DNA from: a virus
IMG/VR virus record: IMGVR_UViG_3300049460_000196
Location: 49,104 to 113,103 of that record
Length of the DNA: 64,000 nt
Strand: one strand, 5' to 3'
The translations under genes and the position numbers were made by a program. How positions within the stretch are numbered: position 1 is the stretch's first letter; each line of letters begins with the position of its first letter. The notes under the pieces are model-generated. The model did no database searches. It was not told the origin of the DNA and saw nothing but the letters and a program-made list of their open reading frames with translations. Shown in pieces: positions 9,694-56,786 of this stretch.

Positions 9694-10324
9694 TTATTCA
9701 ACTATTTGATTTGCAGCCATCGTGGCATCGATTTTTCGTTGTTGATCCTGATCATATAATCGAACAAAAATTAGTTCAATACGTTGACTCCATTGCTGAT
9801 CACGAATTTCCTTTTCAGTCTTCTCCGCTGAAGCAATGGCGAGATCAACAGCACGATCATCTGGAAAAATATGGACCACAGATGACGAAGCAAAATCACC
9901 ACCATTGACATGCTTGGTTATAATCAATACCGGACAAGTCATTTTCGTTTTTGTTGTTGATAAGCCAGGGTCATCACGTGTGTGATTTCGTCATCGTCGG
10001 TGTGATATACCTCACTACCATCTGCATACTTGACTTTACAATATTTCTTGCGGGAATCAAGTAAGTGGAGATCACCATACTCAACTGAAAGCATGATGCG
10101 ATTGCTCGTGATTTCAATCATACCGGATAGCGGATGACTTCACCTGCCGCCAAGGCTTTAACTTGCTCAGCCAACTGTTCTTGAATCAGCAACAGCTCTG
10201 CTTTTGTGGTGATGTGTTTTTTGCTGTCGTCAGCAAAGATCACCATACAATCAACATTTTCTGGATGATCGTAATTGTAGTCTACCGACTTGATGTACAG
10301 CGGATATTTGTCCATGTAAGCCAT
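9694..10324 (-). other. three small overlapping hypothetical ORFs (9694-9942, 9939-10121, 10118-10324)
   Basis: 4-nt stop/start overlaps; the last two share CxVx(Y/F)ADxS. Confidence 0.6.
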
Positions 10325-10386
10325 TCAAATGCTCCTCGAAAGCATTATGGTAACAAGACAAATACTTGATGTCTAATTATGAATTC

Positions 10387-10462
10387 TGGTGCTGATGAAG
10401 GGGATCGAACCCTTGACCTCTTCCTTACCGAGAAAGTGCTCTTCCAACTGAGCTACATCAGC
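10387..10462 (-). tRNA. tRNA-Thr(GGT)
   Basis: cloverleaf, C33, CCA. Confidence 0.9.
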
Positions 10463-10493
10463 GTTGAAGGGACGGGAAGAACTCCCGTCCCTT

Positions 10494-11063
10494 TTAGTTA
10501 CCTGGCAACAGGCGACTTTTCTTCTGCACACCAGCCAGCAAAAATTCCATCTGGTCAGCCAGGATGTTGCGGTTACGCATGATCAATCCTTCGTTACGGT
10601 CAGGTACGTATGGTACGTACAAGAGTGGCATTTTTGCTTCTTCAGGAGTACGGTCAGCTTTACGACTGTTGCATGGCTCGCAAGCCGCAACAATGTTCTG
10701 CCATGTGAATGGACCACCACGCGAGTCTGGCATGATGTGTTCCATGCGCAGGTCATCTTTATGGAACTGACCACCGCAGTAAGCACAGGTGTGACGGTCA
10801 CGAAGAACCAGAGCATCCTTGCTCAAAGCAATCGACAAGCGGTGACGCTGATCGCTCTTGCCCTTTACTGCGATAATGGTTGGCACTCGCATGGTGGACT
10901 GGTCACCATCACGATTGTGACCTCCGCGCAGAGTGATCTGCTCATCGCCCATTTCCCAAAGAATCTTACCCAGCGATTGCAGGTAAGCGTAGTGTTCAAT
11001 ATCTGACCACTGGGTTGGCGTACCATACGCATCCAGTGTCAATATCCGTATCCGATCCAACAT
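10494..11063 (-). CDS. HNH endonuclease
   Basis: RDRHTCAYCG...EHIMPDSRGG...NIVAACEPCNSRK. Confidence 0.9.
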   Translation of the reverse strand: MLDRIRILTLDAYGTPTQWSDIEHYAYLQSLGKILWEMGDEQITLRGGHNRDGDQSTMRVPTIIAVKGKSDQRHRLSIALSKDALVLRDRHTCAYCGGQFHKDDLRMEHIMPDSRGGPFTWQNIVAACEPCNSRKADRTPEEAKMPLLYVPYVPDRNEGLIMRNRNILADQMEFLLAGVQKKSRLLPGN

Positions 11064-12921: not shown

Positions 12922-13197
12922 TCATTTACTACATGTAATTGGCTGAACTGGATTGCCACGGAAACCTGGTTGATACACTTGCACCAAGGCCACGCCACCA
13001 GCACCATTACTGGTATTCGACTTTTCCTGCGAAGCAACAGCAAACACGAAGCCACTCAAGCATACCGTGTTGACTGTTACCGTTGCATTGTTGTTAGTCT
13101 TAGTTGATACCGACTCTGGGCGAAACACAGGAGCAACGGCATCAGCCGCAAATGCGGTACTGGCGAGCAACAGGGTAGTGAGGATTACTTTTTTCAT
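12922..13197 (-). CDS. small exported protein
   Basis: signal peptide MKKVILTTLLLASTAFA. Confidence 0.7.
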   Translation of the reverse strand: MKKVILTTLLLASTAFAADAVAPVFRPESVSTKTNNNATVTVNTVCLSGFVFAVASQEKSNTSNGAGGVALVQVYQPGFRGNPVQPITCSK

Positions 13198-13209
13198 ATT
13201 TGATATTAT

Positions 13210-13962
13210 TGGGGGCGGGTGGAGGACTCGAACCTCCGACAACGTCCTTACAAGGGAATTGAGGGTTATGCTGTGACTATCCTGATCAGGATCGTGCCTT
13301 TCGGCTTCTACAGCTAAATAAGGTCGCGAGATTGCAGTCTCCACCTTTCTAACGCTTTCAAGGAGCATCAGCATGGATATTTATCCGCCAACTTTTCTTT
13401 ATATAAAACAACACGCAATTACTGGCAAACTTTACTTTGGCAAAACCGCAAAGGACCCAGAAACTTATTTGGGATCAGGCACTTATTGGCGCAAGCATAT
13501 CAAAAAACATGGAACAGAACATGTCATTACTGTGTGGTATTGTTTGTTTTATGACACGACAACAATAAGTGAATTTGCATTATCATTTTCGGCAATGCAC
13601 AACATTGTTGAATCTACAGATTGGGCAAATCTTAGGCCTGAAAATGGTCTAGATGGTAACCTTCCTGGAAATGTCCCGTGGAATGTCGGACTAGAAGCAC
13701 ACAATAAAGGCACAACCAGTCCAAACAAAGGGCGAACTTTGTCAGTTCGTTCTCAAGAACATAAAGACAAAATATCAGCAAGCTTAACTGGTAAAACCAA
13801 GTCTAGTAAACCTCAACCCAATCGAAAAGCACGGGTACATGTAAAACACGACACCGTAATCTGCCCTCATTGCGGAAAAACTGGCGGAAGTAATATAATG
13901 GGTAGGTGGCATTTTTCTAATTGTCCAGCTAAGACGTGCTCTACCAACTGAGCTAACCCGCC
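13210..13962 (-). pseudogene. split tRNA-Thr(TGT) (5' half 13932-13962, 3' half 13210-13254)
   Basis: GGCGGGT/ACCCGCC acceptor and CGTCT/GGACG anticodon stem across a ~680-bp insert. Confidence 0.85.
13373..13951 (+). CDS. GIY-YIG (Seg-like) homing endonuclease
   Basis: FLYIKQH...LYFGKT...YLGSG, NUMOD3-like segment, CPHC zinc knuckle. Confidence 0.85.
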   Translation: MDIYPPTFLYIKQHAITGKLYFGKTAKDPETYLGSGTYWRKHIKKHGTEHVITVWYCLFYDTTTISEFALSFSAMHNIVESTDWANLRPENGLDGNLPGNVPWNVGLEAHNKGTTSPNKGRTLSVRSQEHKDKISASLTGKTKSSKPQPNRKARVHVKHDTVICPHCGKTGGSNIMGRWHFSNCPAKTCSTN

Positions 13963-13972
13963 CAAAAACTGT

Positions 13973-14308
13973 TTAGCAGCCTGCCGCAGGGCCGCGATGT
14001 GCCATGCCGTAGGCAATGTGATCGGAATTACTACCCGCCTCTGCAAGCATTTTGGCCATGCGAGCGCGAGTCATATCATCTTCGAGACGTTTAGCTTCAG
14101 CTTCAGTCTGGATGGCAAGTTGCAGGTGATTGCCGATGATGTTCAGCTTTTCTTGAGTAATGCCGGTCGGTTTACTGACTTCCAGATAACCACGGAGCCA
14201 GTAAACGAAATCGCGAGAATTCATTGGAGTTAATCCTTGTTGTTGTTCAATAGCTAGACGTCGAATCCCGTCTACCAGTGCCTGTAATAAGACTTGTTTG
14301 CTCATCAT
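13973..14308 (-). CDS. hypothetical protein
   Basis: ORF with FVYWLRGYLE segment. Confidence 0.6.
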   Translation of the reverse strand: MMSKQVLLQALVDGIRRLAIEQQQGLTPMNSRDFVYWLRGYLEVSKPTGITQEKLNIIGNHLQLAIQTEAEAKRLEDDMTRARMAKMLAEAGSNSDHIAYGMAHRGPAAGC

Positions 14309-14346
14309 GTGGCAACTATACAACAACAAGGTGGTACCATGCAAGC

Positions 14347-51697: not shown

Positions 51698-51764
51698 CAG
51701 GATGCGGTTTTTAACGTGGTCAAATTTAAAGTTTGAATGTTTTGTAATTTGCTGTACGCATCCT
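51698..51764 (-). ncRNA. stem+CAGCAA repeat RNA, copy F (CT-TTA-AA loop)
   Basis: AGGATGCG/CGCATCCT stem, TCAAA-CTTTAAA-TTTGA hairpin. Confidence 0.7.
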
Positions 51765-56665: not shown

Positions 56666-56786
56666 CTGGATCATCTTTTTATGTCACCGCTCTACCAACT
56701 GAGCTATGAGCAGCTTTATCCAAACTGCTCAGAAGGATTCGAACCTCCGACAAACGACTTGTATTAGATTTTGCTGAACTGATCCA
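56666..56786 (-). ncRNA. stem+CAGCAA repeat RNA, copy G, carrying a circularly permuted tRNA
   Basis: order T arm, acceptor closed by loop, D arm; TGGATCA/TGATCCA stem. Confidence 0.8.

What the first reader, a model, noticed from the sequence alone, without database searches (positions are those of the whole stretch)
13210..13962. tRNA-Thr(TGT) split by an antisense GIY-YIG gene; 3' half fused to a CAGCA element
Seen: both halves are complete and would rejoin at position 31/32. The nuclease is on the opposite strand and uses the antisense of the D arm for its last codons and stop. Directly before the 3' half is AGGATAG-TCACAGCA (13269-13283), the 5' end of the repeat family, and TCC-CTTGTAA-GGA re-forms an anticodon hairpin. 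Inference: recombination at the anticodon loop between a tRNA and an anticodon-bearing repeat RNA, which links the two systems.
Basis: partly seen in the sequence, partly recalled or inferred. Interest (0 to 1): 0.75.

Follow-up and report, generated by a model that had tools for sequence, protein, structure and literature searches.

The report
Homing-nuclease gene splitting a handle-bearing tRNA-Thr
A selfish DNA-cutting-enzyme gene has landed, backwards, inside a phage gene for a threonine-tRNA-shaped RNA that already carried a built-in "CAGCA" docking arm, so the split is an ordinary mobile-element insertion and not a fusion of two RNA systems or an intron.

Summary
On the minus strand, 13962-13933 and 13257-13210 are the two parts of a perfect tRNA-Thr(UGU) cloverleaf. 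They are separated by about 677 nt that carry an intact plus-strand GIY-YIG/NUMOD3 homing-endonuclease gene, whose last five codons and stop lie in the antisense of the tRNA 5' part.

The CAGCA motif is also real, but it did not arise by recombination at this locus. More than 100 other phage contigs hold uninterrupted tRNA-shaped genes with the same build: spacer, covarying hairpin, CAGCAA and a linker, inserted between tRNA positions 28 and 29. At least 11 of these have the Thr(UGU) anticodon loop, and two read CAGCAT as this one does.

The window copy has every one of those parts. The nuclease cassette, about 615 bp at 13318-13932, sits in the module's 5' spacer. It is flanked by a 7-nt direct repeat, and its leader is conserved upstream of homologous nuclease genes elsewhere.

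There is no group I signature, although a control intron was detected under the same settings. I found no empty allele or ortholog.

Most likely this is a recent, one-off insertion of a free-standing nuclease gene that broke a handle-bearing tRNA-like RNA gene. The RNA class had already been noted on other DNA in this scan.

The parts
13933..13962 (-). 5' part of the tRNA-Thr(UGU)-shaped RNA gene: acceptor 5' strand GGCGGGT, D arm, A26, then C27 G28 (T29' C30')
   Evidence: Covariance model R1 hits 13882-13962 at 33 bits.
13926..13932 (+). Right copy of the 7-nt direct repeat CAGCTAA, abutting the tRNA 5' part. It lies inside the last codons of the nuclease ORF.
   Evidence: The chance of the boundary 7-mer recurring in the 117-nt non-coding stretch is about 0.007.
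13373..13951 (+). Intact homing-endonuclease ORF of 192 aa: GIY-YIG domain, NUMOD3, C-terminal CPHC..WHFxNC zinc ribbon. Codons after Lys (13931-13933) and the TGA stop are antisense tRNA sequence.
13321..13372 (+). Conserved leader of this nuclease family: a covarying two-step hairpin (AGGT..GAGA..TCTC..ACCT) and an AGGAG ribosome-binding site. Homologs have TATAAATA just upstream, where the window has GCTAAATA.
   Evidence: nhmmer finds 20 hits next to homologous nuclease genes and a single hit in this genome, at 13321-13375.
13318..13932 (+). Inferred inserted nuclease cassette of 615 bp. An equivalent placement is 13311-13925.
   Evidence: Direct repeat and start of the conserved leader. 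The exact boundary is an inference.
13311..13317 (+). Left copy of the direct repeat CAGCTAA
13296..13317 (-). Remaining 5' spacer of the module (TTAGCTG TAGAA, then the mini-hairpin GCC-GAAA-GGC at 13305-13296)
   Evidence: It has no similarity to sequences upstream of nuclease homologs.
13276..13295 (-). Module hairpin: ACGATCC / loop TGATCA / GGATAGT, 7 pairs with one A-G mismatch
   Evidence: Inverted repeat I6. Aligned to the class hairpin by R1 and R2.
13268..13275 (-). Joint CA plus the core motif CAGCAT (CAGCAA in most of the class)
   Evidence: CAGCAT also occurs in the intact relatives L221 and L260.
13258..13267 (-). A/C/U-rich linker AACCCTCAAT (10 nt)
   Evidence: The class linker is about 8-14 nt.
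13210..13257 (-). 3' part of the tRNA-shaped RNA: T29 C30 C31, anticodon loop CTTGTAA, GGACG, variable loop, T arm, acceptor 3' strand, C73, CCA
   Evidence: R1 hits 13213-13345 at 37.1 bits.

Best explanation
The locus was a single gene for a tRNA-Thr(UGU)-shaped RNA carrying the phage's CAGCA handle module between tRNA positions 28 and 29. This is a widespread build in large phages. Earlier notes of this scan attribute the handle to a Ro60-like (DUF2828) partner protein.

A free-standing GIY-YIG homing-endonuclease cassette (degenerate late-promoter-like motif, conserved leader hairpin, ribosome-binding site, ORF) then inserted in the opposite orientation into the module's single-stranded 5' spacer. 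The insertion probably used a 7-nt microhomology or duplication (CAGCTAA). It cost the cassette its own stop codon, so the ORF now ends in antisense tRNA sequence.

The RNA gene is thereby split into a 30-nt 5' piece and a 108-nt 3' piece. It is most likely a recent pseudogene, while the nuclease gene is intact.

Shown: the anatomy, the class, the nuclease fold, the conserved leader, and the absence of a group I core. Inferred: the order of events, the exact cassette boundaries, and loss of RNA function.
For: (1) The joined halves form a perfect cloverleaf.

(2) The class exists. The pattern D-arm..CAGCAA..T-loop finds more than 114 viral stretches, and 115 of 117 matches have 7/7 acceptor pairs. 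RNAalifold recovers acceptor, D and T stems plus a 7-bp module hairpin in which every pair shows compensatory changes. Pairs 27-43 and 28-42 hold in 35/36 and 36/36 sequences with 4-5 pair types.

(3) At least 11 uninterrupted Thr(UGU) versions exist, two of them with CAGCAT.

(4) R1 aligns window 13213-13345 to hairpin, ACAGCA, linker, T arm and acceptor (37.1 bits), and 13882-13962 to the 5' part (33 bits).

(5) The helix keeps the GGAT/ATCC signature of this genome's 11 standard family members.

(6) The nuclease is whole: 628 homologs, conserved C-terminus, I-TevI-like fold.

(7) The nuclease leader 13321-13372 is conserved upstream of homologs, while the module is not. No module-like hit (13 bits or more, the reporting floor of that search) lies antisense just upstream of the nuclease gene in 83 homolog loci.

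(8) A 7-nt direct repeat flanks a 615-bp unit.

(9) The association is a one-off. Only 4 of 86 homolog loci are near tRNAs. Only two weak nuclease matches, neither beside a module, occur in about 218 loci fetched with the two RNA patterns.
Against: - No HEG-less allele or ortholog was found: the predicted empty junction and an ortholog pattern gave 0 hits in metagenome contigs, and the 3' half gave 0 hits in viral contigs. The order of events is therefore inferred.
- The core reads CAGCAT where all 11 family members of this genome read CAGCAA.
- The hairpin has one mismatch.
- Module-only scores are at the top edge of background when position is ignored.
- The inferred ancestral spacer (about 24 nt) is longer than in the class (about 7-15 nt).
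- Both RNA pieces are undecayed, which fits a recent insertion but also fits retained function.
- Homing does not normally leave a 7-bp repeat, so the insertion route is unclear.
Confidence: 0.75

Rival explanations
1. The split gene still works. The handle-bearing tRNA-like RNA tolerates the insert in its flexible spacer, or is cut (for example sense/antisense duplex processing) into two pieces that stay paired through the acceptor stem and pairs 27-43/28-42. The spacer would then act as a safe harbour for the nuclease gene.
For: Both pieces are undecayed and pair perfectly. The insert lies in the one module segment that is variable in length and unpaired across the class.
Against: No recurrence: no other nuclease of this family lies in a module. 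The flanks show no significant complementarity (duplex -11.7 kcal/mol against shuffles at -8.4 +/- 2.5; 9% of shuffles are as good). A terminator-like site lies inside the antisense ORF. There are no expression data.
Confidence: 0.1
2. One reading: recombination at the anticodon loop between an ordinary tRNA-Thr gene and an anticodon-bearing CAGCA repeat RNA made this chimera here, together with the nuclease insertion.
For: Standard-form family RNAs that carry CAGCAA, a linker and a Thr-type anticodon hairpin exist in many phages. Family member 56673-56776 of this window has a Thr-like T arm and D arm. Nuclease-made breaks do promote recombination (PMC2330249).
Against: The identical chimera exists uninterrupted and without any nuclease gene in many unrelated phages, with covariation across the junction. 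The discontinuity is at 28/29, not in the loop. The handle here is the closed-hairpin form, not the open terminal-stem form of this genome's repeats.
Confidence: 0.06
3. The 677-nt insert is an intron that is removed from the RNA, either by self-splicing or by a protein, restoring tRNA-Thr(UGU). The nuclease would then be an intron-borne homing enzyme encoded antisense.
For: The 5' part can end in U31, as group I 5' exons do. Joined halves give a perfect tRNA. True group I introns and nuclease-bearing inserts do occur in tRNA genes of similar phage arrays (L215, L302, L224, L286).
Against: No G precedes the 3' part; the nearest lies 14 or more nt upstream. There is no Intron_gpI hit at E <= 10, while the control intron in L215 scores 39.9 bits, E 9e-9, with the same settings. 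Only 117 nt of the insert are non-coding. The ORF is antisense. The short module alone is retained as a constant feature in over 100 genes and also occurs as a terminal-stem handle on non-tRNA cargo, which argues for a handle rather than an intron.
Confidence: 0.05
4. A plain tRNA-Thr(UGU) was hit, and the CAGCA resemblance in the 62 nt next to the 3' half is chance or hitch-hiking filler DNA.
For: Module-only model E 3.5. The PWM score of 10.4 bits is far below true members, and five non-member sites score higher. The core is CAGCAT rather than CAGCAA.
Against: Hairpin, 2-nt joint, core and 10-nt linker all sit in register with position 29 (conditional chance about 3e-4). The helix has the GGAT/ATCC signature of this genome's family. 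13256-13317 is not part of the conserved nuclease cassette. CAGCAT occurs in intact relatives.
Confidence: 0.04

Closest known systems
Phage T4 SegB and other free-standing GIY-YIG homing endonucleases of T4-like phages (PMC2330249; review PMC2988022)
   Same: Free-standing GIY-YIG nuclease gene with its own leader, living in a phage tRNA gene cluster. Relatives in cultured T4-like and Vibrio phages are annotated as homing endonucleases. The catalytic domain is I-TevI-like.
   Different: SegB lies between tRNA genes and recognises a T-arm motif (PMC2330249 abstract). Here the gene lies inside an RNA gene, antisense, and reads into it for its stop. Cleavage and homing are untested. This is a different family: the only sequence matches are weak Pfam ones and PHROG 655/314.
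tRNA-shaped RNAs with a CAGCAA handle between positions 28/29
   Same: Same order of parts, same insertion point, same hairpin-joint-core-linker build, and the same Thr(UGU) loop as at least 11 intact examples. A DUF2828 gene with a handle RNA just upstream is present in this record.
   Different: This copy is interrupted by 615 bp, reads CAGCAT, and has a longer spacer. Binding to the DUF2828 protein and its Ro60-like shape were not tested here.
Group I introns with homing-endonuclease ORFs in bacterial and phage tRNA anticodon loops (PMC3984707)
   Same: A tRNA gene interrupted near the anticodon by several hundred nt that encode a homing endonuclease.
   Different: No ribozyme core, no terminal G, ORF on the opposite strand, and an insertion point in the stem (28-31) rather than the loop.
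Fractured genes: protein genes split by a free-standing homing-endonuclease gene and rescued by split inteins (PMC2677866)
   Same: A free-standing nuclease gene sits inside a host gene and divides it into two pieces.
   Different: The host gene here is an RNA gene, and no rescue device comparable to split inteins is visible.
Split tRNA genes of Nanoarchaeum equitans (from my own knowledge: Randau et al. 2005)
   Same: 5' and 3' tRNA halves are separated in the DNA near the anticodon.
   Different: Those halves are separate genes with long complementary GC-rich extensions, joined by the archaeal splicing enzymes. Here the halves are 0.7 kb apart on one strand and their flanks are not significantly complementary.

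Membership tests
Free-standing GIY-YIG homing endonuclease gene | GIY-YIG catalytic fold and motifs | tested here: met
   AF2 model has pLDDT 85, about 97 over residues 11-90. I-TevI catalytic domain matches at Z 8.5, rmsd 2.8 A over 85 aligned residues; the next rows score 4.4 or less. LYI..(10)..YFG, invariant H42 and E90, and nearly invariant N91. Pfam GIY-YIG is weak: E 0.036 here, 8 of 15 relatives match, best 1.7e-4.
Free-standing GIY-YIG homing endonuclease gene | DNA-binding extension (NUMOD3 / zinc finger) | tested here: met
   NUMOD3 matches in 13 of 15 relatives, best E 4.5e-12, and E 0.005 here, below the Pfam cut-off. The CPHC..C motif is invariant.
Free-standing GIY-YIG homing endonuclease gene | Not embedded in a self-splicing intron or intein; has its own expression signals | tested here: met
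   No intron model hit, with a positive control. The conserved leader with ribosome-binding site is shared with homologs.
Free-standing GIY-YIG homing endonuclease gene | Presence/absence polymorphism among related genomes; site-specific cleavage of the empty allele | not testable with these tools
CAGCAA-module-bearing tRNA-shaped RNA | Complete cloverleaf body with pairs 27-43 and 28-42 bridging the module | tested here: met
   C27-G43 and G28-C42 here. The class shows 35/36 and 36/36.
CAGCAA-module-bearing tRNA-shaped RNA | 5-9 bp hairpin ending 1-4 nt before the core, then an 8-14 nt A/C/U-rich linker to position 29 | tested here: met
   7-bp hairpin with one A-G mismatch, joint CA, 10-nt linker.
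CAGCAA-module-bearing tRNA-shaped RNA | Core motif CAGCAA | tested here: inconclusive
   The window reads CAGCAT. All 11 family members of this genome read CAGCAA, but intact Thr(UGU) relatives L221 and L260 read CAGCAT.
CAGCAA-module-bearing tRNA-shaped RNA | One uninterrupted gene of about 110-130 nt | tested here: not met
   It is interrupted by about 615 bp. The inferred uninterrupted form would be 138 nt.
Group I intron in a tRNA gene | Ribozyme core (P3-P9) and a terminal G at the 3' splice site | tested here: not met
   No RF00028 hit at E <= 10, while the control L215 scores 39.9 bits. There is no G in the 14 nt before the 3' part.
Y RNA / Ro60 (YrlA-type) system | RNA bound by a Ro60-type ring protein encoded nearby | not tested
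   Only a DUF2828 Pfam hit at G000 9998-10741, with a handle RNA just upstream. TROVE (PF05731) gave no hit. The Ro60-like shape is a claim of earlier notes.

The most novel reading that the evidence does not exclude
The CAGCA module's spacer is a tolerated or removed segment. The nuclease-bearing gene would then still yield a working handle-bearing tRNA-like RNA, either as two paired pieces or after excision. That would make the module an intron-like safe harbour for a homing-endonuclease gene in a non-ribozyme RNA.
Probability: 0.1. Interest if true: 0.8.

Novelty: new variant of a known kind. Interest (0 to 1): 0.45.

Why it matters

First, the tRNA-plus-CAGCA chimera is a standing, widespread gene type in large phages, with a fixed insertion point between tRNA positions 28 and 29 that is supported by covariation. 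It is not a local accident.

Second, the split is the work of an ordinary free-standing homing-endonuclease cassette.

The locus is a natural insertion mutant of that RNA class. It marks the module's 5' spacer as the place where 615 bp could enter, and it predicts the sequence of the empty allele and hence a candidate nuclease target. It also shows that "split tRNAs" in phage tRNA arrays should be checked for handle modules and nuclease cassettes before splicing is proposed.

Tried and rejected
- **Group I or other known intron:** Rfam at E <= 10 found nothing on either strand. The same settings detect the tRNA-Leu(UAA) intron of L215. The gathering threshold missed that control, so only the E-value runs count.
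- **Close relatives or an empty allele:**
  - megablast against phages found nothing.
  - The exact 3' half gave no match in viral contigs.
  - The flanking protein 13973-14344 gave no match in viral contigs.
  - The predicted empty junction and a degenerate ortholog pattern gave no match in metagenome contigs.
  - Relatives cannot be drawn for a virus record.
- **Module as part of the nuclease cassette:** rejected.
- **Recurrent pairing of this nuclease family with tRNAs or modules:** rejected.
- **A standard-form partner strand:** ACTACCC-TGTT lies downstream at about 13160, inside the signal-peptide codons of ORF 12922-13197. I judged it a chance match once the closed hairpin form explained the module.
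- **Split-tRNA-style flank pairing:** not significant.
- **PDB by sequence for the nuclease:** nothing at E < 0.2. Foldseek E-values were weak, but VIA-align was clear.

Full report
**Setting.** The window is bases 49104-113103 of a 113-kb linear IMG/VR virus record that CheckV rates 27% complete. It holds 54 ARAGORN tRNA/tmRNA calls, all on the minus strand.

**What is in the sequence.**
- On the minus strand, 13962-13933 reads acceptor strand GGCGGGT, U8 A9, a canonical D arm, A26 and CGTC. 13257-13210 reads TCC, the loop CTTGTAA, GGACG, a 5-nt variable loop, a T arm, ACCCGCC, C and CCA.
Joining at 28/29 or 31/32 gives a perfect tRNA-Thr(tgt) cloverleaf.
- No other tRNA-Thr(UGU) is in the record.
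- Between the parts, the plus strand carries ORF 13373-13951 (192 aa). Its last five codons and the TGA stop are the antisense of the anticodon-stem 5' strand and the D arm.

**The ORF is an intact homing-endonuclease gene.**
- It matches PHROG homing-endonuclease families 655 and 314 at E about 3e-8. Pfam matches to GIY-YIG and NUMOD3 are weak.
- It has 628 homologs at E <= 0.001, mostly 180-250 aa. They share LYI..YFG, conserved His, Glu and Asn residues, and a C-terminal CPHC..WHFxNC motif followed by a 2-8 residue tail.
- An AlphaFold model (pLDDT 85) aligns to the I-TevI catalytic domain at Z 8.5, rmsd 2.8 A over 85 residues, far above the next matches.
- Homologs in cultured T4-like, Vibrio and Pseudomonas phages are annotated as homing endonucleases.

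**It is not a group I intron.**
- No G lies within 14 nt of the 3' part.
- Only 117 nt of the insert are non-coding, and the ORF is antisense.
- Rfam at E <= 10 finds no intron model. The same settings give Intron_gpI 39.9 bits, E 9e-9, for a 297-nt tRNA-Leu(UAA) intron in phage locus L215.

**The repeat family in this genome.** The record has 11 clear standard members on the minus strand. Their build is T[TA]-GGATNNN, 1-3 nt, CAGCAA, an A/C/U-rich linker, a cargo that is often a permuted tRNA body, then NNNATCC-(N)GTTA. One sits just upstream of a DUF2828 gene, the protein that earlier notes of this scan call Ro60-like. I did not test that shape, and TROVE gave no hit.

**The key comparison.**
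- A pattern search for D arm, CAGCAA and T loop in one short stretch found more than 114 viral stretches. In 115 of the 117 matches the ends form 7/7 acceptor pairs. These are complete tRNA-shaped genes of 110-128 nt.
- In each, a spacer, a hairpin, a 2-4 nt joint, CAGCAA and a linker follow tRNA position 28.
- An alignment of 38 diverse ones (A2) gives an RNAalifold structure with acceptor, D and T stems plus a 7-bp module hairpin. Every hairpin pair shows compensatory changes.
- Counting from fixed landmarks, 27-43 pairs in 35/36 and 28-42 in 36/36 sequences, with four to five pair types. In more than half of the 36, positions 29-31 pair locally with 39-41 around a 7-nt anticodon-type loop. 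The module therefore sits between positions 28 and 29 throughout the class.
- A second pattern (CAGCAW, CTTGTAA, T loop) found at least 11 uninterrupted Thr(UGU) versions. L221 and L260 read CAGCAT.

**The window copy against that build.** After C27 G28 comes TC, then the nuclease cassette. The remaining parts, on the minus strand, are:

| Part | Sequence | Coordinates |
|---|---|---|
| Spacer remnant | ends in the mini-hairpin GCC-GAAA-GGC | 13317-13296 |
| Hairpin | ACGATCC / TGATCA / GGATAGT | 13295-13276 |
| Joint | CA | 13275-13274 |
| Core | CAGCAT | 13273-13268 |
| Linker | AACCCTCAAT | 13267-13258 |
| tRNA 29-31 onward | T29 C30 C31 and the rest of the tRNA | 13257-13210 |

- Covariance model R1, built on A2, aligns 13213-13345 in exactly this way (37.1 bits) and 13882-13962 as the 5' part (33 bits).
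- The helix keeps the GGAT/ATCC signature of this genome's own family.

- A module-only model from other phages (R2) gives 11.8 bits, E 3.5 in 128 kb. That is rank 4 in the window and level with true members at 51741 and 17531, which score 12.0 and 11.7.
- A PWM from the 11 local members gives 10.4 bits against 20 or more for those members. Five non-member sites score higher in 226 kb.
- Ignoring position, the match is therefore at the upper edge of background. Given that it must fall within about 9 positions relative to tRNA position 29, the chance is about 3e-4.
- Architecture and the genome-specific helix signature add to this. I take the module as real but slightly off consensus.

**Limits of the mobile cassette.**
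- The 52 nt before the start codon (13321-13372) match the DNA just upstream of nuclease homologs in other contigs: L061 at 85% over 53 nt, and also L027, L026, L022 and L020.
- The alignment shows a covarying two-step hairpin and an AGGAG site. In homologs a TATAAATA motif precedes it, where the window has GCTAAATA.
- An HMM of this leader finds 20 sites in the nuclease loci, most of them just upstream of the nuclease gene. It finds one site in this genome, at 13321-13375.
- The 7-mer CAGCTAA that abuts the tRNA 5' part (13926-13932) recurs at 13311-13317, with a chance of about 0.007. A 615-bp unit is thus bracketed by a direct repeat.
- Read across the repeat, the ORF would end ..NCPAK-TAA, a tail length typical of the family. 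This is an inference.
- The module therefore lies outside the cassette. No module-like hit (13 bits or more) lies antisense just upstream of the nuclease gene in 83 homolog loci.

**The association is a one-off.**
- Only 4 of 86 homolog loci have tRNAs nearby, and none shows tRNA halves at the ORF ends.
- About 218 loci fetched with the two RNA patterns contain only two weak nuclease matches, neither beside a module.

**Reading.** A handle-bearing tRNA-Thr-shaped RNA gene was entered in its flexible 5' spacer by a free-standing nuclease cassette. The entry was probably an illegitimate event at a short homology, not cognate homing, since the cassette lost its stop codon and part of its promoter-like motif. 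The intact ORF and the undecayed RNA pieces point to a recent event. The RNA gene is most likely dead.

The order of events and the loss of function therefore remain inferences.

**Alternatives.**
- Retained function as a two-piece or insert-tolerant RNA cannot be excluded. It has no positive support: flank pairing is not significant, a terminator-like site lies in the antisense ORF, and there is no recurrence.
- A chance CAGCA match is unlikely for the positional reasons given above.

**Comparison with what is known.**
- The nuclease behaves like T4 SegB and other free-standing GIY-YIG genes that live in phage tRNA clusters (PMC2330249, PMC2988022). Unlike them it lies inside an RNA gene.
- Group I introns with nuclease ORFs in tRNA genes (PMC3984707) resemble it only superficially.
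- "Fractured" protein genes split by a nuclease gene (PMC2677866) are the nearest structural analogy, but no rescue device is visible here.
- The host RNA belongs to the CAGCAA-handle class that earlier reports of this scan relate to YrlA-type Y RNAs (PMC4201824). That class was noted before on other DNA. The interruption by a nuclease gene is what is particular to this locus.

Noticed in passing
window 13321-13372; L061:1920-1978, L027:1937-1996, L026:1934-1994, L020:1510-1569, L022:1925-1994 and 15 more sites: This nuclease family has a conserved roughly 55-nt leader: a covarying two-step hairpin followed by AGGAG. In homologs a TATAAATA (T4 late-promoter-like) motif precedes it. It probably controls nuclease expression.
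   Followed up: partly
L215:6735-7115, L302:120-488 (tRNA-Leu UAA); L213:5066-5905: Phage tRNA genes with inserts ending in ..AGTAG(T/C)AAG. The L215 insert scores 39.9 bits on Rfam Intron_gpI, below the gathering score of 50, so gathering-threshold scans miss these phage tRNA introns.
   Followed up: partly
L224:2927-3707 (-), L286:7710-8253 (-): tRNA-shaped genes (CAU and GUC anticodons) interrupted by 685 and 468 nt. Each insert carries a same-strand ORF (182 aa with a C..C..C pattern; 139 aa) and ends in G. They are likely nuclease-bearing group I introns.
   Followed up: no
window 56673-56776 (-): A standard-form CAGCAA family member whose permuted cargo has a T arm and D arm very like those of the split tRNA-Thr (CGTTTGTCGGAGGTTCGAATCC and TAGCTCAGTTGGTAGAGC).
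   Followed up: no
G000 9998-10741 (-), about 38 kb before the window: A 478-aa ORF matches Pfam DUF2828 (63 and 38 bits). A CAGCAA family RNA lies directly upstream (core at G000 10919). Pfam TROVE gives no hit in the record.
   Followed up: partly
G000 about 5259 (-), about 43.8 kb before the window: TATGGATTGGGTTCAGCTATTAT scores 16.7 bits on the family PWM, the best non-member score. It may be a degenerate family member reading CAGCTA.
   Followed up: no
window 13310-13314 and 13270-13274 (-): In the inferred uninterrupted RNA, the spacer GCUGU can pair with ACAGC of the core motif in the minimum-energy fold. The same GCUG is part of the direct repeat. This may be chance (about 0.02).
   Followed up: no
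window 12922-13197 (-): A 91-aa ORF with a clear signal peptide (MKKVILTTLLLASTAFA) starts 13 nt after the tRNA CCA end. It has no Pfam or PHROG match.
   Followed up: no
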